This document shows, piece by piece, positions 357-49,441 of a stretch of DNA of 64,000 nucleotides. A program made the translations under genes and the position numbers. The notes beneath the pieces were generated by a model. It had not been told where the DNA came from. It worked only from the letters and a program-made list of their open reading frames with translations, and did not search any database. The stretch comes from a virus. The DNA lies in UHGV virus genome UHGV-0326727, one strand, 5' to 3'. The first letter of the stretch is position 1. Each line of letters opens with the position of its first letter.

Positions 357-902
357 TCAAAAGTGTCCTTTTACTTGTGGAACATAAATTTCAAAAGTTG
401 CTTTACCATCCTCTGATGGTTTTGACTGTACCTTTGTAAATACACGGTTATCATACAACTTCTCGAAGAAGTTTTCAAAAGGTAAATGCACAGTGGCCTC
501 TTCAGTAACTTTATGAAAGACTGTATGGAACACTACATCAGCATACGGTAAAGCATTGACAAGGACACCTGCACCACCAATTACAAAGACATCTTCATCA
601 ATAGAGCTATCAAGATATTTCAAAAATGCTCCAAATGACTCTTTACTGGCTTTTGCATACATTACATCATCTTTGCCAAAGTCTATGCCTAAGTATGGTA
701 CAGAATTTGTTAAGATTAGGTTTGCACGTTCTGGTAAAGGTTTACTACCCAGAGTCTTAAAAGTCTCATTCCCCATCACTACTAAGTTGTTTTTAGTGAG
801 TCTCTTAAACTCTTGCATATCCTGTTTATGTCGAGGCCACGGCATACCAGTTGGAGTACCAAACTCCCCATTTTCACCACTTGCAAAGATTAGTTTAATC
901 AT
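357..902 (-). CDS. frd: dihydrofolate reductase
   Basis: 181 aa; MIKLIFASGENGEFG...GMPW...LVVMGNETF pattern typical of DHFR; adjacent to thyA. Confidence 0.8.
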   Translation of the reverse strand: MIKLIFASGENGEFGTPTGMPWPRHKQDMQEFKRLTKNNLVVMGNETFKTLGSKPLPERANLILTNSVPYLGIDFGKDDVMYAKASKESFGAFLKYLDSSIDEDVFVIGGAGVLVNALPYADVVFHTVFHKVTEEATVHLPFENFFEKLYDNRVFTKVQSKPSEDGKATFEIYVPQVKGHF

Positions 903-2049: not shown

Positions 2050-2349
2050 TTAATCTGCCAGCCTTAAATTAAAGTTAACACCAAATTTTTCACATACTTC
2101 CAACATAAACTCAAGGGAGACATTACCAGTGAGATTGATTATGTTGGATACACGAGCCTGAGAGATACCACAAATTTTAGCAACTTGCTCTTGAGAAAGA
2201 CCTCTGGATTTAATCTCTCTCTTAAAACGATGTGCAACGAAATCTCTCATTTCGTCTACATCCATTGGACAAATATAACTCTCCATTTCAGCCTCTCTGT
2301 CAGCCTCCCAATCATCTTGTGGAGCATAAGGGTCAAAAACCTCATTCAT
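2050..2349 (-). CDS. HTH (XRE-like) DNA-binding protein
   Basis: C-terminal LSQEQVAKICGISQARVSNII helix-turn-helix signature; start moved to internal Met (MNEVFDP) just after upstream stop. Confidence 0.5.
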   Translation of the reverse strand: MNEVFDPYAPQDDWEADREAEMESYICPMDVDEMRDFVAHRFKREIKSRGLSQEQVAKICGISQARVSNIINLTGNVSLEFMLEVCEKFGVNFNLRLAD

Positions 2350-2554
2350 CTTTCTTCCTCCGTTTGCGTGGAGTGTCAATCAATGAATCTATGTTTGTAG
2401 CCCTAACCTTTTCACGTTCATCGTTAAGGTAATCATCAAGAGCCTTTTCAATCTGTGAATCATCTTGACAGATAACTGTAAAGACTGTAAAGCCATCTGT
2501 ATCATCAATTATCTTACCATAACCGCTTCTGGGATGTAACTTTTTAAGAGCCAT
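2342..2554 (-). CDS. hypothetical protein, basic C-terminus
   Basis: 70 aa ORF ending ...PRKRRKKDE. Confidence 0.3.
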   Translation of the reverse strand: MALKKLHPRSGYGKIIDDTDGFTVFTVICQDDSQIEKALDDYLNDEREKVRATNIDSLIDTPRKRRKKDE

Positions 2555-3327: not shown

Positions 3328-3768
3328 TTAGAAAGGTTTTCTACGTTGCTTGTTAATGTTAGCTTTCATAGCAGCTAAGTGGTTTTGCTGTTCAATCAGT
3401 CGTGAGCGTTCTTGATGGCTAAGTTCCATAGTGTTCACATTCTCAATAGCTTGAGTGGCTTGCTTTAAAGCTCGACCAATCTTACCAGACATTTTACGTT
3501 TTGCAATAGTTGCTTGATGTTTAGGTTCAACCACACGATAACCAACACCCATTGAAGCAACCAGATAAATCTTCTCTTCTTTAAGAAGCTTCTCAATAAA
3601 CTTCTCAAGTCGGTTTAGACGTGTAAGTGCATAAGCCTTCATTTCATCTTCGTACTTAACAATGTCGCCTTGATAAGTTGGCTTCATAATACCTAAGAAG
3701 GTGTCCATCTCAGAATGTGATACAGTGTCACCGTAACTAAACTTTGCTGCTAATGCTTTTGTATTCAT
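3328..3768 (-). CDS. hypothetical protein
   Basis: 146 aa ORF flanked by the two repeat regions. Confidence 0.4.
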   Translation of the reverse strand: MNTKALAAKFSYGDTVSHSEMDTFLGIMKPTYQGDIVKYEDEMKAYALTRLNRLEKFIEKLLKEEKIYLVASMGVGYRVVEPKHQATIAKRKMSGKIGRALKQATQAIENVNTMELSHQERSRLIEQQNHLAAMKANINKQRRKPF

Positions 3769-7406: not shown

Positions 7407-7931
7407 TCAAGATAGTTTTGCGAACTCTCCGTGTAGTTTTATAGCAGCTTCACAGTAAGCTTTATGGGCTTCTTCTGGTGTGTCAAACATACCAAGATGA
7501 TAGTTTTTACCCTGTAAACGAATCATTGCTCTAAACCTTTTACTTATTTTCTGTACACCTTTTGGCAATCCAGATAGGGACTTTCTTGACCGATTACAAG
7601 AGTTTTGTGAGGCTGTACAAACCCTCAAATTCAAGTATCTATTATCCCAACCATCTCCATTCTTATGGTCAACCTGTAAGGTTTTATCAGGTAGATACCC
7701 ATCCATGTATAGTATTACTAAACGGTTAGCTTGGTAGCCTTTACCATCAAGCAACAACTGAACAGACTTGTGACCATCTGTATTTATCCTATAATTACCT
7801 GCCTTTTTACCTCCAAAACGAGAGTTGAAGTTCCTATTACCTCGTGATATTGGCTCTCTAAACTTCCAAGTAAAGACCCCTGTTTCGGGGTCGTAGTCCA
7901 GTAGTTCCTTAAGACGAATTTCTGTAATCAT
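7407..7931 (-). CDS. HNH homing endonuclease with AP2-type DNA-binding domain
   Basis: HNH motif VDHKNGDGWDNRYLNLRVCT; C-terminal AP2-like FRAMIRLQGKNYHLGMFDTPEEAHKAYCEAA; free-standing 10 nt downstream of the polymerase stop; start set at in-frame ATG 7929-7931. Confidence 0.7.
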   Translation of the reverse strand: MITEIRLKELLDYDPETGVFTWKFREPISRGNRNFNSRFGGKKAGNYRINTDGHKSVQLLLDGKGYQANRLVILYMDGYLPDKTLQVDHKNGDGWDNRYLNLRVCTASQNSCNRSRKSLSGLPKGVQKISKRFRAMIRLQGKNYHLGMFDTPEEAHKAYCEAAIKLHGEFAKLS

Positions 7932-7941
7932 TTCAATACCA

Positions 7942-10671
7942 TCAATGCACTTCCAACCAGCTCTTACCAACCTTACCAGTGCCAGTTACAAGCGTCTCTC
8001 TCTTCAAACCCAAATTCTGAGATGCCTGACCATACATCCAGTCAGTTATAGCTTTAACCTCTTGAGTCATACTTTCTGGGCATTCCCAACTGTTTTCATC
8101 GTGGTATGCCAGCAAAAGTCTAGCACCGATTGCTGGTTTTCGTCCATTTAATTTTGTCAACCCTTCTTCACATGCCCTTCTACAAGCAAGGTTAATTGCC
8201 TCATTTTGAATCTGAGCCTCTGAACCCATCAAAAGATAGTTCAACAGTTTGTGTGGAGATTTACACCACAACCAAGCTCCAGCAACCCTTACAAAACCCC
8301 CTTTAGAGATTGCAGCAGTCTTACCAAACACCTCTTCAAGTGCCTTTTTAGTCGCTTTGTAGTCAGCTTCCAAGTCATCTAGCAGCTTCTTAATCTTAGG
8401 CAAACGGATAAAGTAAGTCTGTTTAGTCAGTGCACCTTCCTGAGTAGTTGCAGCTTTAATTGTCTTAGCAAACTTCTCATCACCTGCACCAAACAGTAGT
8501 GCATAGATGCCATTCTTAGCTTTCTTACGACCCTTGCTAATCTCATGAAGAAGGTTCTCATCCTGAGTAGCTCGACAAGTCAAGATATCCTGCTCATCAT
8601 TCAAGCTAAAGTAAATACTATTCAGTGTGTGTGCATCAGTCCCTGAATAGACAACGTAAAGGTCATTCTCAGAGTCATAACGCAGATACTTGTCAACTTC
8701 TGGGTTAAGGTACTCATCAAAATGTTTGCAGTAATAGCGTCCGTCTTCTTGACGAATAAATTCAATCTCTTCTTTACCTTGCGTTACCGCTTTGGTGAAG
8801 TCTTTGTCACCCATGAAGTTACAAAGAAGAACTAGCTGGGCTGAGTTCATGTCTACAGAGACAACGTTAGTACCTTCTTCACAAATCCACACTGCCCTCA
8901 TTGGTTCCCCATAGACAGCAGCACCAGACGGTACGTTTACAATACCATATTGTGTCATACGTCCAGTTGAAGTACCAAATACCATTGCACCAGCACTAAG
9001 GCGACCATCTGGACGAATCTGGTTCAACCAACCTTTTTCATCATCCTTTGAGTTCTCAATAGTTCTGCGTCTGTGCATCAAAGTATAGTACTTAGCAATC
9101 TTCTGTCCAAGCTCACCTTCAATCGTATCATAAGATGATTCAGTAAGCTTTGGTGAAGTCCTAATCAGACAAGGTTCAAGTAAATCTGTGTACTTCTTAA
9201 CAGACCAGTTATGCTCAATGTACTGGACACCTTCATGTTCAACATAACTCAAACCACACCGTTCAACCATCTCCTGCCACTTAGGATGCTTGGTAATCAT
9301 CTTTTTGTTGTCTTTGAAACGACAAACCTTAACAGGACGACCATCTGAGTCTTTCTTGTAGTTCCAGTCATCTGGAATCCAACCAACTGATTTCAAGTAG
9401 TCTTTAACAACTGCTACCTGAGTCATACGAGAAACTTCGAACTCAATTGGTGTATATGGTGCATCAATCAAACCTGTGTAGCGACTTGACTCAAGCTCAA
9501 AGTGGTTAACAACATGGCTGTTATAGTACTTCACAGTCTTAACTGTTTTTACTGGCTTCCAGTCTTTGCACTTCTTACCAATCTTTGCATTCAACTCATT
9601 GCAAATTGCACGAGCATCCTTCATTGCTACAAAGCCTTCATTGTACTCTTCACCAGTTACAGAGTTGGTTGGTGTATAGCAATTCCGCTTTTCAATGTTA
9701 AAAATCTTTGTAGTTGGCTTACCAAATGGCTTGATTTCATATGTCTGCATTTCACCATTACGTACCTGCTGACGATACTTTGTCTTAGGGTACTTGGTAA
9801 TTCTCTTCAGTCCATCTGCATGACCGAATGCTTCAACATACTCATTCCAAGCTTTTGCAAATTCTTCTCCAGTGACTTTACCTTTGGTCTTAATAGTTGG
9901 TGGAAGGTGTGGTTCAACTTCTGAAGCAAGCTCATTAGTCAACTTGTCAAGTTCCTTTGCATGGAACTCCATAAGCTCTTTATCAGCTTTCCAACCATTG
10001 ATAGCCTGTTGACTCATCCAGAAAGATGTTTCTTTAGCTCGCATATAGGTTTCATAAGTATCTATGCCACACTTCTTCAGCTTGAGATATTCATTATCCA
10101 GTGCACGTTTAGTTTTGGCGTTAATACGGATATCTTCTACAACACGAGTGAAGATTTCTGCATTCCACACACCCCAATGTTCAATCTCTGGTTTACGTAC
10201 ACCAACACGAGCACCCCATGCTGCCAAGCCATGAGCACCTTTATAACCTTTTGGAGTTGGTCTATCCATCCACTGAACACGAGACTGGATAAGAGAATCC
10301 TGAAAGAAATTACTCCACGGCTTACACTTTGGATTATCAAAGTTCCACAAATCAGGTGCAATGTGATTGAAAACCCACCAGTCATACCCCAGACCATTAT
10401 GGATGCAGAGTCGTTTTGCCTTTAACGCAAACTCAATGCCTTCACGTAAGCCACCCTTAATGTACTTGGTATACTTGTGACCGAGGATAGGTTCATCTGT
10501 AAAGACCCATACAGGCGGCTCTTCATCGTCAGATTTATAGTCTGCGAAAGCCATTACGTGCACTTTAGTGAACTCAAGGAGTAAACCATCAGTTTCTGTA
10601 TCACCAACTAAATGTAAGTTTTTAAAATCTACGTTTTCCATTTTTACTCCCTCTAAAATCATTAACCTCAT
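7942..10671 (-). CDS. DNA polymerase, family A (Pol I-like) with 3'-5' exonuclease domain
   Basis: 909 aa; exo I motif GDTETDGL; motif B-like RKKAKNGIYALLFGAG; motif C YHDE; C-terminus ends ...SWLEVH (terminal His typical of family A). Confidence 0.85.
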   Translation of the reverse strand: MRLMILEGVKMENVDFKNLHLVGDTETDGLLLEFTKVHVMAFADYKSDDEEPPVWVFTDEPILGHKYTKYIKGGLREGIEFALKAKRLCIHNGLGYDWWVFNHIAPDLWNFDNPKCKPWSNFFQDSLIQSRVQWMDRPTPKGYKGAHGLAAWGARVGVRKPEIEHWGVWNAEIFTRVVEDIRINAKTKRALDNEYLKLKKCGIDTYETYMRAKETSFWMSQQAINGWKADKELMEFHAKELDKLTNELASEVEPHLPPTIKTKGKVTGEEFAKAWNEYVEAFGHADGLKRITKYPKTKYRQQVRNGEMQTYEIKPFGKPTTKIFNIEKRNCYTPTNSVTGEEYNEGFVAMKDARAICNELNAKIGKKCKDWKPVKTVKTVKYYNSHVVNHFELESSRYTGLIDAPYTPIEFEVSRMTQVAVVKDYLKSVGWIPDDWNYKKDSDGRPVKVCRFKDNKKMITKHPKWQEMVERCGLSYVEHEGVQYIEHNWSVKKYTDLLEPCLIRTSPKLTESSYDTIEGELGQKIAKYYTLMHRRRTIENSKDDEKGWLNQIRPDGRLSAGAMVFGTSTGRMTQYGIVNVPSGAAVYGEPMRAVWICEEGTNVVSVDMNSAQLVLLCNFMGDKDFTKAVTQGKEEIEFIRQEDGRYYCKHFDEYLNPEVDKYLRYDSENDLYVVYSGTDAHTLNSIYFSLNDEQDILTCRATQDENLLHEISKGRKKAKNGIYALLFGAGDEKFAKTIKAATTQEGALTKQTYFIRLPKIKKLLDDLEADYKATKKALEEVFGKTAAISKGGFVRVAGAWLWCKSPHKLLNYLLMGSEAQIQNEAINLACRRACEEGLTKLNGRKPAIGARLLLAYHDENSWECPESMTQEVKAITDWMYGQASQNLGLKRETLVTGTGKVGKSWLEVH

Positions 10672-16521: not shown

Positions 16522-17562
16522 ATGGAGAAGTATACGCTAACAAAACTTCCCGATTCAGTTACACATGTCTTTATTGACTCTGATAGTATTGCCTATAAAG
16601 GTGCTTGTGTAGTTGAGAAAGCAAAATATAAATACGTCAATAAACTCACAGCAGAAGAATCTGAACCATTTGATAATGCAAAAGATGCTGCAAGATGGTT
16701 AGCAGACCAGAGAATCCTTGTAGAAGAGCTTGGCCTGACATTTGATGAAGATGAATGGGAAAGACAGACTTGGAAAGAAGCTAAGAGTGAAAAAGAAGCT
16801 ATCATGGCTACTCAGCAGGTTCTTCAGGAATGGCTTAAGGTTGTTGGTAAAGAAAGAACTTGGGTAGGTTACTTAACAGAGAAGGGCGTACATAAACATA
16901 AAGATATTAAAGGTCTTGAGCACCAATATCAAGGTAACCGTAAAGAGGCTGTCACACCAACACACTTAGTTGCTTGTCGTGAATATCTTTTATCCAGACC
17001 AGAGTTCAAACTCTTAAAGGGTGGATTCGAAGCTGATTCAATCGTAATTGCTAAAGCTGAAAAGATGGGTAAGAAAGCTGCTCTTATGAGTATTGACAAA
17101 GACCTTCGACAAGCTGAAGGGACTTATTGTATTGATATGACTTATGAAAAGTCACCACTAATTTTTATTGCTGATAATAATGTTGGTGATATCTGGGATT
17201 GTCCTATCAAATCAAAACCAAAAGCTGCAAAAACAGTTGGTGTAGGTTTTAAATTCTTGTGTTATCAGGCTGTTGCTGGAGATAATGCAGACAACTACTT
17301 CGGCCTCAAAGGTGCTGGCAAAGTAGCTGTGATGAAGGCTTTAGATGGTAAAGAGACTTATAAAGAGTGTCTTGATGCTATCTATGAACTTTATGCTAAA
17401 AAAGAATCTTACACCTATGTGTCATGGGATGGACAGACTGTTACCAAAACACCGTTAGAGTTAATGGAACAGCATTTCTTCCTAGCTTATCAAGAGAGAA
17501 ATCCAAAAGATAATTTCTCTTTTAAGAAATATAATTGGGAGCCGTGTATGAATGAAGATTAA
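16522..17562 (+). CDS. 5'-3' exonuclease / flap endonuclease (FEN family)
   Basis: GGFEADSIVIA matches the FEN G(Y/F)EADD motif; N-terminal acidic cluster VFIDSDSIAY. Confidence 0.6.
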   Translation: MEKYTLTKLPDSVTHVFIDSDSIAYKGACVVEKAKYKYVNKLTAEESEPFDNAKDAARWLADQRILVEELGLTFDEDEWERQTWKEAKSEKEAIMATQQVLQEWLKVVGKERTWVGYLTEKGVHKHKDIKGLEHQYQGNRKEAVTPTHLVACREYLLSRPEFKLLKGGFEADSIVIAKAEKMGKKAALMSIDKDLRQAEGTYCIDMTYEKSPLIFIADNNVGDIWDCPIKSKPKAAKTVGVGFKFLCYQAVAGDNADNYFGLKGAGKVAVMKALDGKETYKECLDAIYELYAKKESYTYVSWDGQTVTKTPLELMEQHFFLAYQERNPKDNFSFKKYNWEPCMNED

Positions 17563-18049
17563 AGGATTTGGCAATTGTCCTACCTATGGTCATTGGGTAT
17601 CTTTATGTGGGGAAGTTGACCCCACTAAACATTTTGGCTTTGTCTATTTAGTATACTGTAAGAAAACCGGACAATATTATATCGGAAAGAAACAGCTTAA
17701 TAGCGTGACCAAAAGAAAAGTTGCTGGCAAGACTCGGAAGAAGGTAGTCACTAAGGAGAGTGATTGGATGACTTATGAGACTTCTTCTGAGTATATTAAA
17801 AAAGATATTGAGAGCTTTGGAAAAGAATTTTTTGACTTTTACATTATCCAAACCTACTACACGAAAGGTGGTCTAGTTTATGGTGAAGCAAACCTCCAAC
17901 ATAAATTCGATGTAATGACAAAAAGGATTGACTCTAAGCTCAGACTCTTCTATAATGCCAATATTGCAGCAATTAAGTTTATCACTAAAGAAACTTATGA
18001 AGATGCTGAAAAAAGAATCCATAAGGTAATGAAAGCAAATTGTGCTTGA
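17552..18049 (+). CDS. GIY-YIG-like nuclease domain protein
   Basis: FVYLVYCKKTGQYYIGKK resembles the GIY...YIG motif; otherwise unassigned. Confidence 0.35.
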   Translation: MKIKGFGNCPTYGHWVSLCGEVDPTKHFGFVYLVYCKKTGQYYIGKKQLNSVTKRKVAGKTRKKVVTKESDWMTYETSSEYIKKDIESFGKEFFDFYIIQTYYTKGGLVYGEANLQHKFDVMTKRIDSKLRLFYNANIAAIKFITKETYEDAEKRIHKVMKANCA

Positions 18050-39443: not shown

Positions 39444-40229
39444 ATGGGTATTGTAAAAATCATCAATGGGGATATCTTCTCCGCATTTGATAAAGGTAAG
39501 TTTGATATTATTGGTCACGGTTGCAACTGTATGAATTTAATGGGTGCAGGTATCGCTGATAAGATTTCTAAACTTTACCCAAAAGCATATGAGACCGATA
39601 CAGAAGTTTATCTGTATGCAGGTGGTATAGGCCACAAACCCTGTGAAAATTTACTAGGCAATTTCTCTGTAGCACGTTTAAAACAAGGACGTATAGCTAA
39701 CCTTTACACTCAGCTTAAGACTGGTAAAGATGCCCGATACAGTGCTTTAGAGTCATCTTTGAAACAGCTTAACAGATACTGTGAAGTTAATCAGTTGAAG
39801 AAAGTTGGGCTACCTATGATTGGTGCAGGTATCGGTGGGCTAGACCCTCAAGCCGTCACCGTTATCATTAATCAGGTGATGAAGAGTGTAGATGTGTATC
39901 TGTATGTCTACGAAGGAGAGATGTACCACAAGTTACGCTCAGGTTGGAAGAACTACTGTGAACCAGAATACTTTGCAGGTGTAGTAGTGTTCACTGATGA
40001 TGCAGTTACCCTCTTCAGACGAAGAAAAGGTAAGATACATCAAAGTAACCCTCCGGTTGAAAAGATGTCTCTAAGTAACGCTCTAGTTACCCACCTGTCG
40101 AAGAGCAATCACAGAATTGCAGTAACATTTGGCAGTGATGCAGATACATATATCTATGCAAGAACTGATGAGGATGTTGAGGAAATTTTCTCTTCACCGG
40201 AAGTAACCTTCTTAGACGCAAAGAACTAA
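39444..40229 (+). CDS. macro-domain-like protein (putative ADP-ribose binding/processing)
   Basis: N-terminus IVKIINGDIFSAF...FDIIGHGCNCMNLMGAGIADKI parallels the macro-domain GDIT...VNAAN..LxGGGGVxxAI signature. Confidence 0.45.
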   Translation: MGIVKIINGDIFSAFDKGKFDIIGHGCNCMNLMGAGIADKISKLYPKAYETDTEVYLYAGGIGHKPCENLLGNFSVARLKQGRIANLYTQLKTGKDARYSALESSLKQLNRYCEVNQLKKVGLPMIGAGIGGLDPQAVTVIINQVMKSVDVYLYVYEGEMYHKLRSGWKNYCEPEYFAGVVVFTDDAVTLFRRRKGKIHQSNPPVEKMSLSNALVTHLSKSNHRIAVTFGSDADTYIYARTDEDVEEIFSSPEVTFLDAKN

Positions 40230-40289
40230 GAAACTCTGTAGAATATTCACAATAGGTTAAGCCTTTCTTATCTGGTAAATTTTTCAGGT

Positions 40290-40500
40290 AAGGAGGGCTT
40301 TTTCATTTCAGGATTGTGCAGGTAGAGTTCTGGACAGAAATCTGTAGAGAAAATTTTGAACTCCAAAGAGAAAATTCATTTTCAAACTGTGCAGGTAATC
40401 TCCAAAGAGCTTTTTCATTTTCAAAACGTGCAGACCCCGCTCAGGTCGGGCAAGAAAAATCATTTTAGAATTGTGCAGGTAGGTGGGTGCAGGTGGGGAT
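40290..40500. repeat. four direct repeats of a 25-bp motif (iteron-like)
   Basis: tcatttcaggattgtgcaggta / tcattttcaaactgtgcaggta / tcattttcaaaacgtgcaga / tcattttagaattgtgcaggta, plus extra gtgcaggtgggg; no ORF. Confidence 0.6.
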
Positions 40501-40657
40501 GTCGCCATTTCTCACAAGGCTACCACATCTGAAAAGAAAAGTCAACAGAAAAATTTGTAGCGGATTGAAAAATAATTCTTGATTGTAGTTCTGTTTTGTG
40601 GTAGTCGCGTGCGCCCGTTTCATTACAGTTTTTGCAAAAATATTTTTAAAATTCCTA

Positions 40658-40686
40658 TTGACTCTTTGAATATGGTTATCTAATAT
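40658..40686 (+). promoter_or_regulatory. sigma70-like promoter for the small-gene array
   Basis: TTGACT, 17-bp spacer, TAATAT. Confidence 0.5.
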
Positions 40687-40736: not shown

Positions 40737-40943
40737 ATGCTTTACAGTCGTGAATTGATGGTTACAACTAACGTTAACACAAAGTTAAAACGTTTTTATA
40801 TGCAAGTGTGCGGCGCATGGCGTAGAATATCAGAAGCTGATTATTGCAACTATGTAGAAACGGCAATCAATTCTAATTGCTACCTTACGAAGAATACAAA
40901 GCGACATATAAAACAGACAGCGGTTTACTATTACGATATATAA
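40737..40943 (+). CDS. hypothetical small protein (array gene 1)
   Basis: ATG preceded by the ...ctaaactggagaatcaaaaaatg leader. Confidence 0.4.
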   Translation: MLYSRELMVTTNVNTKLKRFYMQVCGAWRRISEADYCNYVETAINSNCYLTKNTKRHIKQTAVYYYDI

Positions 40944-41033
40944 AAAGTACTTTACAGGGGGCTTAAAAGCTGATATCTTAAGCCCCAGATAAAGAGCTTT
41001 ACTTAATTAACCCTTAAACTAGGAGATTCAAAA

Positions 41034-41414: not shown

Positions 41415-41502
41415 TAAAGTACTTTACAGGGGGCTTATAGTTCGATAAAGTAAGCCCCAGATAAAGAGCTTTACCACTAAATCCTAAATTGGAGATTCAA
41501 AA

Positions 41503-46568: not shown

Positions 46569-46634
46569 ATTGTCAATCAACGGGGAGGGAATGGCCTTCC
46601 CCACTAAATAAAGTCCTAAACTGGAGTTATCAAG

Positions 46635-46898
46635 ATGGAAAACGTCGAACTGACCACACTTTTACAAATTGCAACCGACAAAGAGGATGTAGCATTATTC
46701 CACCGTATCGAAAGTGATTTGTTCAATGGTGAAATCATTAAAGAATCTTACGAAGTGGTCGGATTCAAAGATGGTAAAACATTTGGATTCTTTGACCTCG
46801 ACAAAGGCAACGCTATTACAAAGTATGATGTTTTATCTTGTGAGATTCTGACAAAATACAACGAAAAAAGACTTGCAACATACGCCAACATGCAGTAA
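46635..46898 (+). CDS. hypothetical small protein (array gene 15)
   Basis: Type-2 cassette variant upstream. Confidence 0.45.
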   Translation: MENVELTTLLQIATDKEDVALFHRIESDLFNGEIIKESYEVVGFKDGKTFGFFDLDKGNAITKYDVLSCEILTKYNEKRLATYANMQ

Positions 46899-46974
46899 AT
46901 TACTAATCAACGGGAGGGATGACCTCCCTACTAAATAAAGTCCTTAAACTACTTCCTAAACTGGAGATTCTAAA

Positions 46975-47223
46975 ATGGCAACTATCCGCGCAATTGTAAA
47001 TTCTTATGGCTGCTACACTCTGGACGTTAAATTTGATATCGGTGGGACTGATGAGTGTTTCGAACTGGTGAAGACAGTCATTAAACAAGTTATCCCAGAC
47101 TATAACCCTACTGATGACTTCTGGAAAGATGCCGTAAAAGAGGCGTTGAACGATGAATATCATTACCATTATTGGGGTGACTTGATTGTCTCACTGTACT
47201 ACAATAAACAAGGTTGCAACTAA
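46975..47223 (+). CDS. hypothetical small protein (array gene 16)
   Basis: Type-2 cassette upstream; last gene before terminator. Confidence 0.45.
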   Translation: MATIRAIVNSYGCYTLDVKFDIGGTDECFELVKTVIKQVIPDYNPTDDFWKDAVKEALNDEYHYHYWGDLIVSLYYNKQGCN

Positions 47224-47260
47224 TCGACGCAACGGGGCAAATAGCCCCAGATACCTTTAC

Positions 47261-47284
47261 AGCCCCTTAAATGGGGCTTTTTTA
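47261..47284 (+). terminator. rho-independent terminator ending the plus-strand array
   Basis: agccccttaaatggggct hairpin followed by TTTTTT. Confidence 0.65.
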
Positions 47285-47285
47285 C

Positions 47286-48810
47286 GTCTTATCAAATCCC
47301 TATGCAATCCTTTCCCTTTCCTTTCCAGAATCTATCCCATACCTTAAAAGCAATAACTCTATAGCTTACTCTATAGCCCCTTATCAAATCAACTTAAATA
47401 TAAGCCCATAACCCGAAAGGGAAGGGCAACCATTTAAACGCTCTATAAAGCCCTATAACAGCCTTATCAACCTAACTTAAGGGATTGCATTACCTCACCC
47501 TTAAAAGCCCTTTATAAAGCTTCCCAGAGCCTTAAAAGAATCTTATAAGGGTGTAAGCTTTATTATCTCGTTAGCTATCTTGTGAATGGTTAAACAACCC
47601 CTTGATAGTCACTAAAAAGTATGTTATAGGGGCTATAAAGTTACTTCAAAGTTACGTAAATGCTAGCCCCCTTAACATTTTCTTAACAATTTCTTAACAA
47701 TCCCTACATAGTTATGCTTTTAAGGCACTTGTTAGCAACTTGTTAGCCCCTTGTTAAATCTCTGTTAATACCTCGTAAAAGCCTTGTAAGAGCCTTTGGC
47801 ATAGCCTTTAAAGCTTCTGTAAAGCCTTATAAAGAGCTTTCTACATAGTTGGGGTGTAATTACTAGAAAGAGATTAAAAAGAGCTTATAAGGGGCTATAA
47901 AGGGCTTTTAAGAGGGCTATTTAAAGAGTCACTAAGAAGGAAAGGGAACGATAAGAAAGAGATAGTGACCATGTTAATAGCTTGTTAAAAAGATTAGACA
48001 CTTGTTAGGAACTTGTTAATTATCTTAACAAAATAACTCTTTAAAATTAACTTGTTAGCTCTTGTTAGTCATCTGTTAAGCCTCTGTAAAGACTATGTAT
48101 CAACTGTTAAGAAACTGTTAAGCTCTTGTTAGTTCTGTTAAGGAACTGTTAAGACCTCTGAAGAGATGTTAAGAAGATGTAGCAACTGTTAAGGGATTGT
48201 TAATGATATTTTAAAATTCTGCAAAGGGGATGTTACAGAGATGTTAAGGGCTACCAAGCAGATATACATCTTCTACAGATATTTTTCAGTTCCTTCAAAG
48301 ACCCTAAAAAATGACTTGATAGTCCTATTTTATAAAAATTTTAAAATTCTGAATAATTACCTATACAGTCTTTTAAAAATACAGGCATAAACAGGCTTAT
48401 AAGATACCTTGTTAGTACCGTGTTAGACCTTGTGAGATAAGGTCTGTAAAGATATTCCTGTTAAGTTTGTTAAAACAGCCTATATAGAGGCTTAGTAATA
48501 CCTAGTGAACACCTATAGAGGGTAACATAGCTAACCTAGAGATTAAGAGGTGTATAGGGGCTTCTAAGAGGGTGTAGAGTGATGGTTAAGGTGATTGTAT
48601 AGGTTGTTAAGAAGGCTTGTTAGAAGAGTGTTTAGAAGGGCTATACAGAGGGGCTATTAAGACCACTAGATAGATACTAAGATACTATATAGTACTATAT
48701 AACTATATATATAGAGAGTAAGCTTAAGAAGGTTGTTAAGAAGGTTAGATATTTTATTCACATATGATGGTGACCCATAGGTTGGGACAACCGATAAAAT
48801 TTTATAAAAA
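47286..48810. repeat. 1.5-kb ORF-free island of degenerate 9-11 bp periodic repeats
   Basis: No ORF of 60 aa or more on either strand; repeat families ccTTATAAag/cTATAAAG (about 47400-47900), CTTGTTAG/CTGTTAAG in both orientations (47680-48200, e.g. caactgttaag aaactgttaag ctcttgttag ttctgttaag gaactgttaag), and a TATATA-rich tract near 48650-48720. Confidence 0.75.
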
Positions 48811-48811
48811 T

Positions 48812-48836
48812 TAAAAAGCCCCCAATTAAGGAGGCT
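48812..48836 (-). terminator. rho-independent terminator for the minus-strand block
   Basis: Reverse complement reads agcctccttaattgggggct + TTTTT, the same hairpin as at 12154-12177. Confidence 0.6.
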
Positions 48837-48847
48837 CTTAAGATATT

Positions 48848-49441
48848 TTAAATCAATGTTTCCAGAACTGTCTTCAGTGATGACTTGGTTGTCTGATAAA
48901 AATGAGTGAATCCATTGTTGTTATCGAATACTTGCATCATGATGTCATCTCCCTTGATTGGGTACACTCGGATATCATAGTGAAAACCATTAAAGACACA
49001 AGAACCACTACAGAATGCTCTAAAGTCATCCACTGAGATATACTCTTCATGTCCTGTGATTTTTATACAAACACCTTTACTCGGTCTCTTAGGGTTGATA
49101 TCTTCCATCACAGACATGCTCTGTCCACCAAGAGAGACCATAGTGACCACTTTACGGTTCTTCTGTCTAAAGTACATCTTAACTTTCTGCAAAGTGTCTT
49201 CATAGAACGGATAAGACCTTTCTACAAAGATTCCTTCAAGTGGCTCTTTACCATTTTCAACTTCTCTGTTATGCCGTACTGCAAAGATAATTTGTTGGAA
49301 CCAGTCAAAATTTTCTTCAGATAGTGCTTCCCGAACATCAGCCCAATCAAGGACTAGGTAGTTGCCTTCAACATCTTTTAAGTTATCTTTTTCCATATCT
49401 ATCACACCATTATCGTAAAACTTGGTAATCTGGTACTGCAA
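48848..49441 (-). CDS. hypothetical protein
   Basis: 197 aa ORF, last gene of minus-strand block. Confidence 0.4.
   Translation of the reverse strand: MQYQITKFYDNGVIDMEKDNLKDVEGNYLVLDWADVREALSEENFDWFQQIIFAVRHNREVENGKEPLEGIFVERSYPFYEDTLQKVKMYFRQKNRKVVTMVSLGGQSMSVMEDINPKRPSKGVCIKITGHEEYISVDDFRAFCSGSCVFNGFHYDIRVYPIKGDDIMMQVFDNNNGFTHFYQTTKSSLKTVLETLI

What the first reader, a model, noticed from the sequence alone, without database searches (positions are those of the whole stretch)
40290..40500. Iteron-like direct repeats upstream of the small-gene array promoter
Four copies of a roughly 25-bp motif (TCATTTTCAAAnTGTGCAGGTA) spaced about 42-75 bp apart, plus an extra GTGCAGGTGGGG, lie in an ORF-free stretch just upstream of the TTGACT-17-TAATAT promoter at 40658. 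This looks like an operator array or replication iterons.
Basis: seen in the sequence. Interest (0 to 1): 0.5.

Follow-up and report, generated by a model that had tools for sequence, protein, structure and literature searches.

The report
Conserved repeat array in Felix O1-like phages
A non-coding gap in this Felix O1-type phage genome holds four same-direction copies of an 18-base two-part motif that stays almost unchanged across the whole phage subfamily and occurs nowhere else in the genome, so it is very probably a docking site for a DNA-binding protein, although its job (starting replication or controlling nearby genes) is not yet known.

Summary
The window is a Felixounavirus genome (98.9% identical to Escherichia phage SME50). 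Four same-strand copies of TCATTTY-N6-GTGCA start at 40303, 40376, 40415 and 40460. They sit in the 507-bp gap between the macro-domain "phosphatase" gene with its terminator and the first early small-gene promoter (TTGACT-17-TAATAT, 40658-40686).

The array is far beyond chance and is unique in the ~90-kb genome. It keeps the same position in all four Ounavirinae genera and in a relative with only 40-60% protein identity. Core identity between lineages is 0.95-0.97, against 0.25-0.36 for the flanks.

It is not coding, not a structured RNA and not a sigma-70 promoter set. It is also not the genome terminus: the direct terminal repeat maps to about 47666-48257. The extra GTGCAGGTGGGG is specific to one sequence variant and is not part of the element.

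The best reading is a multi-site platform for a sequence-specific DNA-binding protein. I slightly favour an origin or iteron-like role because the array is genome-unique and lies about 200 bp from the nearest promoter. No initiator was found and the replication proteins are T7-like, so a regulatory or insulator role stays nearly as likely. I found no published description. Interest is moderate.

The parts
39444..40229 (+). Macro-domain 'phosphatase' gene. It is the last gene of the long rightward transcription unit, and the array always follows it.
   Evidence: Pfam Macro domain, E=1e-7. Annotated as phosphatase or macro-domain protein in relatives. The same gene order holds in the divergent contig L031.
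40259..40308 (+). Intrinsic terminator: a 17-pair hairpin (40259-40300) and a T-rich tail. The tail forms the left half of repeat R1.
   Evidence: Terminator scan. The RNA fold shows the hairpin. It is identical to terminator t13 of Felix O1 in Table 2 of PMC3185647.
40303..40324 (+). Repeat R1, TCATTTC-AGGATT-GTGCA-GGTA.
   Evidence: A homologous copy overlaps the terminator tail in all genera.
40376..40397 (+). Repeat R2, TCATTTT-CAAACT-GTGCA-GGTA. It is absent from the BPS17L1/Si3-type relatives, which have three copies.
40415..40432 (+). Repeat R3, TCATTTT-CAAAAC-GTGCA. The core is intact but the 3' flank is GACC rather than GGTA.
40460..40481 (+). Repeat R4, TCATTTT-AGAATT-GTGCA-GGTA.
40487..40498 (+). 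It is not a conserved part of the array.
   Evidence: Present only in the window, mio and AYO145A-type sequences. Absent from FO1a, SUSP2, Moogle, Mordin, Sf13, BPS17L1 and the Erwinia phages.
40484..40536 (.). A 53-bp variable segment. It is G-rich in the window, while FO1a has a C-rich polypyrimidine segment of exactly equal length. Other lineages also have C-rich sequence here.
   Evidence: Alignment. Equal length, with no significant similarity in either direct or inverted orientation. The distance from R4 to the promoter is 198 bp with either variant.
40537..40657 (+). A/T-rich conserved spacer (up to 70-80% A+T). It ends in an UP-element-like tract, AAAAATATTTTTAAAATTCCT (about 40635-40655).
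   Evidence: A+T profile. Conserved in the alignment of all genera. The resemblance to the rrnB P1 UP element rests on my own knowledge and was not tested.
40658..40686 (+). Sigma-70-type promoter TTGACT-17-TAATAT, the first promoter of the terminal array of small early genes.
   Evidence: Promoter scan. A TTGAC-N-(16-18)-TA-NNN-T promoter starts 189-223 bp after the start of the last repeat in nearly all relatives.
40737..40943 (+). First small gene (68 aa) after the gap. It is not a candidate binder.
   Evidence: ORF list. No Pfam match. The gene is missing in AYO145A and BPS17L1-type relatives that keep the array.

Best explanation
**Shown.** The element is a tandem array of units about 37-45 bp long. 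Each unit carries an almost invariant two-part 18-bp site, TCATTTY-N6-GTGCA. The array sits between the terminator that ends the long rightward operon and the strong first promoter of the terminal early-gene block. It occurs once per genome and is conserved across the Ounavirinae.

**Inferred.**
- It works at the DNA level as a multi-site docking platform for a sequence-specific DNA-binding protein.
- The two unlike half-sites lie about 12 bp apart centre to centre, which is one helical turn. The site has no dyad symmetry and all copies point the same way.
- That geometry suits a monomer with two DNA-reading modules, or an asymmetric complex, binding each unit and building a higher-order nucleoprotein complex.

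**Most likely role (my commitment, speculative).** This is an origin-type locus whose repeats act like iterons. A phage-encoded protein, or a phage protein helped by a host protein, would bind the repeats. Together with the adjacent A/T-rich tract and the neighbouring strong transcription, this would mark where replication starts or where the replisome is loaded.
For: **Real and non-random.**

**One cluster per genome.** No other copy with up to 1 mismatch occurs in the 64-kb window or in the remaining ~26 kb of the closest relative SME50.

**Deep conservation at one locus.**
- There are 3-4 same-strand copies directly after the macro-domain gene terminator in Felixounavirus, Suspvirus, Mooglevirus and Kolesnikvirus, and 4 strict (5 with a degenerate one) in contig L031, whose proteins are only 40-60% identical.
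- A whole-gap blastn against Erwinia phages matches only the stretch spanning R2-R4.
- Core identity between lineages is 0.95-0.97, against 0.46-0.50 for the N6 spacer and 0.25-0.36 for the flanks.

**Specific to this phage group.** A scan of IMG/VR for two adjacent copies returned 31 loci. Thirty lie on contigs of 51-94 kb that carry the full 3-4-copy array; the one exception, L023, shares no detectable protein similarity with the window.

**Not RNA and not coding.** Folding gave no significant structure beyond the terminator, Rfam gave nothing, and no ORF is conserved.

**Favouring an origin over an operator.**
- The array is unique in the genome.
- It lies about 200 bp from the nearest promoter, and no copy sits at any of the other early promoters.
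- An A/T-rich tract lies next to it.
- From my own knowledge, lytic lactococcal phage origins and the lambda origin are likewise direct-repeat arrays beside A/T-rich DNA.
Against: **No binder identified.**
- Neighbouring genes have no recognisable DNA-binding domain.
- The only clear helix-turn-helix protein is at 2050-2379 on the minus strand. It was not detected in Erwinia phages and is missing from its usual position in phage M7.

**Replication machinery.** It is T7-like, with a family-A polymerase and a Toprim/DnaB-type primase-helicase. In T7 itself the origin is promoter-driven and needs no iteron-binding initiator (own knowledge).

**Spacing.** The 37-45 bp period is about 3.5-4.3 helical turns. 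This is unlike classical iterons, which sit about two turns apart.

**No host-factor signatures.** No conserved IHF or Fis site and no oriC-type 13-mer was found. DnaA-box likeness is good only in Erwinia phages (1 mismatch) and is poor here (3 of 8 specified positions mismatch).

**Other limits.**
- The rigid 198-bp distance to the promoter could equally point to a transcriptional role.
- Some divergent-lineage copies were found by pattern search, which inflates the apparent core conservation somewhat.
- No experimental data exist. The held literature contains nothing on this element.
Confidence: 0.33

Rival explanations
1. **Regulatory or insulator array.** A phage or host protein binds the four sites. 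It would either control the strong early promoter about 200 bp downstream, by looping or as an upstream regulatory region, or act as a one-directional roadblock. The roadblock would back up terminator t13 and keep read-through from the 29-kb upstream operon out of the terminal early-gene block.
For: - The array always sits between the operon-ending terminator and the first early promoter, and R1 overlaps the terminator tail.
- The distance from the start of the last repeat to the -35 hexamer is tightly kept. It is 198 bp in Felixounavirus even when the intervening 53 bp are swapped, 192-194 bp in Mooglevirus and 223 bp in Kolesnikvirus.
- All copies share the direction of transcription.
- Most lineages have a C-rich, rut-like tract just after the array, which fits a termination zone.
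- From my own knowledge, DnaA bound to DnaA boxes can block RNA polymerase in an orientation-dependent way. The Erwinia-phage repeats carry near-consensus DnaA boxes.
- PMC3185647 states that temporal regulation in Felix O1 is unexplained.
Against: - No copy overlaps or adjoins any promoter.
- The many similar early promoters downstream have none.
- The site lacks the dyad symmetry typical of repressor operators.
- The one helix-turn-helix regulator found is not shared by all lineages that have the array.
- In this window the C-rich tract is replaced by a G-rich one, yet the array is unchanged.
Confidence: 0.28
2. **Boundary element for the genome end.** The array would be a cis-acting site that marks the inner edge of the terminal early segment. 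For example, it could be a pause or stop signal for DNA entry, like the injection-stop region of phage T5, or an anchoring or fork-barrier site.
For: - The physical ends are known. [quoted passage not shown]
- The array therefore lies about 8 kb from the right end, roughly 9% of the genome. It sits just upstream of the first promoter of a block of small early genes transcribed toward that end.
- Erwinia phage M7 has its array about 7.85 kb from the end of its record.
- In the L031/L066 lineage both contigs stop at the same base about 0.8-1 kb beyond the array.
- From my own knowledge, the T5 injection-stop region is a repeat-rich, ORF-free stretch at about 8% of the genome.
Against: - There is no evidence that Felix O1-type myoviruses inject in two steps, or that the right end enters first.
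- The distance to the putative end is not conserved (about 1 kb in L031 against about 8 kb here).
- The T5 comparison is from memory and was not tested.
- The array has no sequence similarity to the terminal repeat.
Confidence: 0.1
3. **Host DnaA-binding cluster.** The right half-site read on the other strand, (n)nnTGCACA, would be a DnaA box. The array would recruit or soak up host DnaA.
For: - All 20 Kolesnikvirus units read CTATGCACA or TTATGCACG, one mismatch from TTWTNCACA, and all have the same orientation. One L031 unit also has a single mismatch.
- The invariant TGCAC(A/G) matches positions 4-9 of the box.
Against: - In Felixounavirus, Mooglevirus and Suspvirus, including this window, the sites mostly have 3 mismatches out of 8 specified positions (ACCTGCACA).
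- The equally invariant TCATTTT half is not explained by DnaA.
- DnaA is nearly identical in the hosts concerned (own knowledge), so the site should not differ by phage lineage.
Confidence: 0.07
4. **Neutral leftover or small protein gene.** The repeats would be a decaying tandem duplication of the terminator tail with no function, or part of a small gene as some annotators have called.
For: - The left half, CTTTTTCATTT, equals the usual terminator tail of this phage. Terminators t5 and t13 of Felix O1 both end this way (PMC3185647).
- Linker sequences are alike within a genome but differ between lineages, as expected for tandem repeats that homogenise.
- SME50 and FO1a annotate plus-strand ORFs here.
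Against: - Twelve core positions are 95-97% identical between lineages whose flanks are at random-level identity and whose proteins are 40-60% identical. Neutral decay would have erased them.
- The ORFs called differ in strand and frame between relatives. The 37/37/39 spacing in Erwinia phages breaks any frame, and Coenus has no open stretch of 45 codons or more.
Confidence: 0.04

Closest known systems
Iteron-type replication origins (lambda ori with O protein, plasmid Rep/iteron origins, direct-repeat origins of lytic lactococcal phages)
   Same: - Three to five same-orientation repeats of about 18-22 bp, once per genome, in non-coding DNA.
- An A/T-rich tract and active transcription lie next to the repeats.
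- The repeats are conserved within a phage group.
- The site is asymmetric, as for monomer-bound plasmid iterons.
   Different: - The repeat period is 37-45 bp rather than about 22 bp.
- No initiator gene lies nearby or was recognised anywhere in the window.
- No conserved DnaA or IHF sites were found.
- The replication proteins are T7-like.
- Origin activity has not been tested.
Upstream or asymmetric phage regulator sites (P1 C1 monomer operators; phi29 p4 sites upstream of promoters)
   Same: - Asymmetric sites bound without dyad symmetry.
- Multiple sites near an early promoter region.
- A role in temporal control would fill a gap acknowledged for Felix O1.
   Different: - P1 C1 operators are scattered over the genome at many promoters. 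Here all copies are in one cluster about 200-380 bp upstream of a single promoter.
- None of the copies overlaps promoter elements.
- The comparison rests on my own knowledge.
Injection-stop signal region of phage T5
   Same: - A repeat-rich, ORF-free stretch at about 8-9% from one genome end.
- It lies at the inner edge of a block of small early host-takeover genes.
   Different: - T5 is a siphovirus with 10-kb terminal repeats and proven two-step DNA transfer. Nothing comparable is known for Felix O1-type myoviruses.
- No sequence similarity was tested.
- The distance to the end is not conserved in the L031 lineage.
DnaA-box clusters (oriC, datA, DnaA-box transcription roadblocks)
   Same: In Erwinia phages each unit carries a same-orientation 9-mer that is one mismatch from the DnaA box.
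   Different: - In this window the match is poor (3 mismatches).
- The second invariant half, TCATTTT, has no counterpart in the DnaA box.
Tandem-repeat partition sites such as F plasmid sopC (43-bp units)
   Same: A tandem array with a period of about 40 bp, each unit holding one protein-binding site.
   Different: - sopC sites are palindromic and come with sopA and sopB genes.
- No partition genes were seen, and a virulent phage has no obvious need for one.

Membership tests
Iteron-type replication origin | Three or more direct repeats of about 17-22 bp in the same orientation | tested here: met
   Four same-strand copies of an 18-22 bp site are present. Relatives have 3-5 copies.
Iteron-type replication origin | Repeats spaced in helical register, about 11 or 22 bp apart | tested here: not met
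   Spacing is 73/39/45 bp here and 37/37/39 bp in Kolesnikvirus. Neighbouring sites lie roughly half a turn out of phase.
Iteron-type replication origin | A cognate initiator (Rep or O-type) gene containing or adjoining the repeats | tested here: not met
   Pfam found no DNA-binding or Rep domain in the 20 flanking proteins. Pfam and PHROGs scans of the replication module found none either.
Iteron-type replication origin | An adjacent A/T-rich unwinding region | tested here: inconclusive
   A/T reaches 70-80% at about 40530-40660. However, that tract also reads as a promoter UP element, and no 13-mer-type motif is conserved.
Iteron-type replication origin | Replication actually initiates at the site | not testable with these tools
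   This needs marker-frequency sequencing, 2D gels or a plasmid-origin assay.
Repressor/operator array | Sites overlap or adjoin the -35/-10 elements of the controlled promoter | tested here: not met
   R4 starts 198 bp upstream of the -35 hexamer. No copy lies at any promoter in the genome.
Repressor/operator array | Dyad symmetry of the site, as for dimeric helix-turn-helix repressors | tested here: not met
   The invariant halves TCATTTT and GTGCA are unlike each other. Inverted-repeat searches found nothing consistent across copies.
Repressor/operator array | A cognate regulator encoded by every genome that carries the sites | tested here: inconclusive
   An HTH_3 protein lies at 2050-2379 on the minus strand. 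It occurs in 259 Felixounavirus, Suspvirus and Mooglevirus records. No Erwinia phage gave a hit at E<=1e-5, and the gene is absent from its usual position in M7.
Direct terminal repeat / packaging site | The sequence lies at the physical genome ends | tested here: not met
   The experimentally determined terminal repeat of UAB_Phi87 maps to 47674-48257. Several records, including three from a study that reported terminal repeats by PhageTerm, begin within a few bases of that point.
Structured non-coding RNA | Stable or conserved secondary structure, or a match to an RNA family | tested here: not met
   Fold z-scores were +0.75 (DNA, plus strand) and -0.06 (RNA, minus strand). The -1.71 for plus-strand RNA is due to the terminator hairpin. 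Rfam gave no relevant hit.
DnaA-box cluster | A 9-mer matching TTWTNCACA with at most 1 mismatch | tested here: not met
   The window's units read ACCTGCACA or GTCTGCACG, with 3 mismatches. The feature is met only in Kolesnikvirus.

The most novel reading that the evidence does not exclude
The array is a one-directional boundary element for the genome end. A nucleoprotein complex on the repeats would pause or stop DNA entry, or arrest forks or transcription, at the inner edge of the roughly 8-kb terminal block of small early genes. That would give a Felix O1-type myovirus a T5-like staged infection. No such mechanism has been described for this subfamily.
Probability: 0.07. Interest if true: 0.75.

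Novelty: new variant of a known kind. Interest (0 to 1): 0.42.

Why it matters
Felix O1 is a classical diagnostic and biocontrol phage, and its relatives are widely used in therapy and food safety. Neither a replication origin nor the way early and late transcription are timed has been described in the literature I could search. The 2010 genome paper says the timing is unknown.

A single cis-element conserved across the subfamily gives a concrete handle on both questions. It can be used as bait to fish out the binding protein. It can be deleted or mutated to test for effects on replication or regulation. It is also a region to avoid or exploit when engineering these phages, for example when inserting reporters or payloads near the non-essential early-gene block. 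If it proves to be the origin with an unrecognised initiator, that would define a new initiator family.

Tried and rejected
**1. Genome terminus or terminal repeat.**
- This looked attractive because the KhF1 GenBank record begins and ends inside this gap.
- I rejected it. The KhF1 ends are an overlapping, N-rich, low-quality stretch. The experimentally determined repeat of UAB_Phi87 and many records place the ends at about 47666-48257.

**2. Sigma-70 promoters inside the repeats.** No acceptable -35/-10 pair occurs on either strand, by the scan and by manual inspection.

**3. Structured RNA, or tandem weak terminators.** Folding and Rfam were negative. The small stem before R4 is not conserved.

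**4. Coding ORF.** The ORFs called are inconsistent between relatives.

**5. Genome-wide excess of GTGCAGGT.** There are 12 copies against 1.5 expected.
- The 8 copies outside the gap all lie on the strand that is transcribed locally.
- The two I checked, inside the macro-domain gene, read Gly-Ala-Gly codons (GGT GCA GGT).
- This is unrelated to the array.

**6. Chi-like sites (GCAGGTGG against GCTGGTGG).** The resemblance is confined to the non-conserved variant and is absent in Erwinia phages.

**7. Host factor sites.** IHF, Fis, CRP and oriC 13-mers gave no conserved matches. A MarA/SoxS/Rob 'marbox' resemblance (GCAC ... AAA) is out of register by 1-2 bp; this was a comparison from memory only.

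**8. A host or plasmid counterpart.** A scan of 185,579 bacterial and archaeal genomes for two adjacent copies found only tandem repeats in distant taxa and nothing in Enterobacterales. The four contigs I compared showed no similarity to the phage.

**9. Inversion of the 53-bp variable segment.** The alignment to the reverse complement was not significant (p=0.09).

**10. Identifying the binder.** Pfam and PHROGs scans of 50 proteins found only one helix-turn-helix protein, and its distribution does not match the array.

**11. Published functional data.** The Bas63 PhageMaP paper, which covers a Felixounavirus, includes intergenic insertions. No data for this locus are in the held text and no supplements are held.

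Full report
**What the window is.** The 2.1 kb around the finding is 94-99% identical to dozens of Felixounavirus genomes. The best match is Escherichia phage SME50 at 98.9%.
- Genes run on the minus strand up to about 10.7 kb, then on the plus strand from 10.9 to about 47.6 kb.
- An ORF-poor stretch follows, then minus-strand genes from 48.8 to 56.2 kb, then plus-strand genes with 24 tRNA genes.
- The finding lies in a 507-bp gap. Upstream is a macro-domain 'phosphatase' gene (39444-40229; Pfam Macro). Downstream is the first of a run of small genes (40737 onward).

**The observation.** Four plus-strand copies of TCATTTY-N6-GTGCA(GGTA) start at 40303, 40376, 40415 and 40460.
- Shuffles of the window give 0.04 expected hits for the 22-nt pattern against 3 observed. 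They give 0.77 for the 18-nt core against 4 observed, and all four lie within 175 bp.
- R1 overlaps the T-tail of a strong intrinsic terminator (hairpin 40259-40300). That terminator is listed as t13 in the Felix O1 genome paper (PMC3185647).

**Conservation.** I extracted the same gap from 11 annotated relatives in four genera: Felixounavirus, Suspvirus, Mooglevirus and Kolesnikvirus of Erwinia.
- Every one has 3-4 same-strand copies directly after the macro-domain gene's terminator.
- A blastn of the whole gap against Erwinia phages matches only query positions 151-253, the stretch spanning R2-R4.
- A scan of IMG/VR for two adjacent copies gave 31 loci. Thirty lie on contigs of 51-94 kb that carry the full 3-4-copy array. 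The exception, L023, is an unrelated 10-kb contig with a 50-bp tandem duplication, which I take as chance.
- One locus, L031, and its relative L066 belong to a lineage whose proteins are only 40-60% identical to the window's. The macro-domain gene is still followed by 4-5 copies, some of them degenerate.
- Between lineages the 12 core positions are 95-97% identical. The N6 spacer is 46-50% identical and the flanks 25-36%. Some units were located by pattern, so the core figure is somewhat inflated.
- Architecture is rigid within groups. Spacing is 73/39/45 bp with the promoter's -35 hexamer 198 bp after the start of the last repeat in Felixounavirus. It is 75/41/45 with 192-194 bp in Mooglevirus, and 37/37/39 with 223 bp in Kolesnikvirus.
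- The underlying unit is a head-to-tail repeat of about 37-39 bp. The 73-bp interval here is about two units, so one copy may have decayed.

**Uniqueness.** No other copy with up to 1 mismatch exists in the window or in the ~26 kb of SME50 that the window lacks. A scan of 185,579 bacterial and archaeal genomes found only tandem repeats in distant taxa (Ignavibacteria, Prevotellaceae and others), and nothing in Enterobacterales. The four contigs I compared showed no similarity to the phage.

**What it is not.**

*Not the genome end.*
- The KhF1 record happens to start and end in this gap. Its ends are an overlapping stretch that degrades into Ns.
- The terminal repeat of the relative UAB_Phi87 was determined by Bal31 digestion and run-off sequencing (PMC4837284, Fig. 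S1). It maps to window 47674-48257 at 84% identity.
- Many records begin or end within a few bases of that point. They include three from a study that reported direct terminal repeats by PhageTerm. Reported repeat sizes of 581-613 bp agree.
- The array is therefore about 7.3 kb upstream of the right terminal repeat.

*Not coding.*
- Annotators disagree on strand and frame, and stop-free stretches are not shared.
- The Erwinia-phage spacing breaks any common frame.

*Not a structured RNA or single-strand element.* Fold z-scores are +0.75, -0.06 and -1.71. The last reflects the terminator hairpin. Rfam finds nothing relevant.

*Not sigma-70 promoters.* See and manual inspection.

*The extra GTGCAGGTGGGG.*
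- It sits in a 53-bp segment (about 40484-40536) for which FO1a has a C-rich tract of exactly equal length; most other lineages are also C-rich here.
- It is therefore not part of the conserved element.

**How it most likely works.**
- The conserved information is two unlike blocks, 7 bp and 5 bp, whose centres are about one helical turn apart. The 6 bp between them vary freely.
- There is no dyad symmetry, all copies point the same way, and there are 3-5 copies at a period of about 37-45 bp.
- That is the signature of a DNA site read by a protein through two successive major grooves, repeated to build a larger complex. I hold this part with about 0.8 confidence.
- The specific role is uncertain.

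*Points toward an origin-type role.*
- The array occurs once per genome.
- Its nearest copy starts about 200 bp from the nearest promoter.
- The many other early promoters carry no copy.
- A/T-rich DNA and strong transcription lie alongside.

*Points against an origin-type role.*
- No initiator was found in Pfam and PHROGs scans of 50 proteins.
- The replication proteins are T7-like.
- The spacing is not that of classical iterons.

*The main rival is a regulatory, insulator or roadblock role.*
- It is supported by the array's fixed place between terminator and promoter and by the tightly kept distance to the promoter.
- Most lineages also have a C-rich tract after the array.
- I rate it only slightly lower.

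*The candidate regulator.*
- The only recognisable sequence-specific DNA-binding protein is an XRE-type helix-turn-helix protein at 2050-2379 on the minus strand.
- It occurs in 259 records, but no Erwinia phage gave a hit. It is missing from its usual position in phage M7.
- It is therefore a poor candidate for the conserved binder.

**A lead that stays open.** Read on the other strand, the right half-site resembles a DnaA box.
- All 20 Erwinia-phage units are one mismatch from TTWTNCACA.
- The units in this window have three mismatches.
- The equally invariant TCATTTT half is not explained by DnaA. I treat this as a lead, not a finding.

**Position relative to the ends.**
- With the terminal repeat at about 47666-48257, the array heads the last rightward transcription unit, about 8 kb from the right end.
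- In Erwinia phage M7 it lies 7.85 kb from the end of the record.
- In L031 and L066 both contigs end at the same base, just past a terminator, about 0.8-1 kb beyond the array.
- This allows a more exotic reading: a boundary element for a terminal early segment, loosely like the T5 injection-stop region. Nothing tests it here, and the T5 comparison is from my own memory.

**Literature.** Searches of the held library found no description of this element, of an Ounavirinae replication origin, or of transcription start-site maps for these phages. The Felix O1 genome paper lists other direct repeats and terminator t13. It also says temporal regulation is unknown.

**Verdict.**
The element is a genuine, conserved, apparently undescribed cis-element of a known general kind (a direct-repeat protein-binding array).
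- Its spacing and two-part asymmetric core are unusual, and no partner protein has been identified.
- Interest is moderate at 0.42.

Noticed in passing
window 46570-48850, especially 47666-48257: This is a 2.3-kb ORF-poor region holding the direct terminal repeat, that is, the physical genome ends. It is packed with short repeats of the type TGTTAAG, TTGTTAG and CTGTAAAG, which may be packaging-recognition sites. Transcription converges on it from both sides.
   Followed up: partly
window 40635-40686: The first early promoter carries an A/T tract, AAAAATATTTTTAAAATTCCT, directly upstream of TTGACT. From memory it closely resembles the UP element of E. coli rrnB P1. It is conserved in all four genera, which suggests a very strong early promoter.
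   Followed up: partly
window 40484-40536: A 53-bp segment after R4 exists in two unrelated forms of exactly equal length. It is G-rich here (and in mio and AYO145A) and a C-rich polypyrimidine tract in FO1a; other lineages are also C-rich here. The distance from R4 to the promoter is 198 bp with both forms. A test for inversion was not significant (p=0.09).
   Followed up: partly
window 40944-41002 and 41416-41474, with further copies downstream: Cassettes of about 59 bp, each a hairpin with an overlapping promoter-like TTTACA-17-TATCTT, recur between the small early genes. They correspond to the 57-bp repeats noted in the Felix O1 paper. They resemble the mobile promoter/stem-loop cassettes of T4-type phages (own knowledge), which could explain the variable gene content of this block.
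   Followed up: no
L031 positions 560-760 (minus strand) and L066 positions 3360-3500: In the divergent lineage the array is followed by about 200 bp dense in TTAACA/TAACA motifs, similar to those at the start of the Felixounavirus terminal repeat. Both contigs end at the same base just after a terminator about 0.8-1 kb beyond the array, which hints at a genome end there.
   Followed up: partly
L007 (Erwinia phage M7) gap positions 59-190; also L008, L009, L030, L035: All four repeats in Kolesnikvirus carry a same-orientation 9-mer, CTATGCACA or TTATGCACG, one mismatch from the DnaA box. The window's repeats do not.
   Followed up: partly
L004/L005 (KhF1, KT184313) record ends: This GenBank record starts and ends inside the repeat gap. 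It has an overlap of about 270 bp that degrades into N-rich, low-quality sequence. This looks like an untrimmed assembly artefact rather than true ends.
   Followed up: yes
window 2050-2379 (minus strand): This is an XRE-type helix-turn-helix protein of 109 aa, the only clear transcription-factor-like gene found. It is conserved in Felixounavirus, Suspvirus and Mooglevirus. It was not detected in Erwinia phages, where the syntenic slot between the DHFR and ligase genes holds a single unrelated gene.
   Followed up: partly
window 7407-7970 (minus strand) and 17552-18049 (plus strand): There are two homing-endonuclease-type genes. One has HNH and AP2 domains and lies next to the DNA polymerase gene. 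The other is a SegE-like GIY-YIG protein.
   Followed up: no
window 567, 7314, 8482, 14661, 39544, 39823, 43209, 54131: The octamer GTGCAGGT is about 8-fold over-represented, and each of these copies lies on the strand that is transcribed locally. The two copies I checked, in the macro-domain gene, read GGT-GCA-GGT (Gly-Ala-Gly). This is a codon-usage effect, not extra copies of the array.
   Followed up: yes
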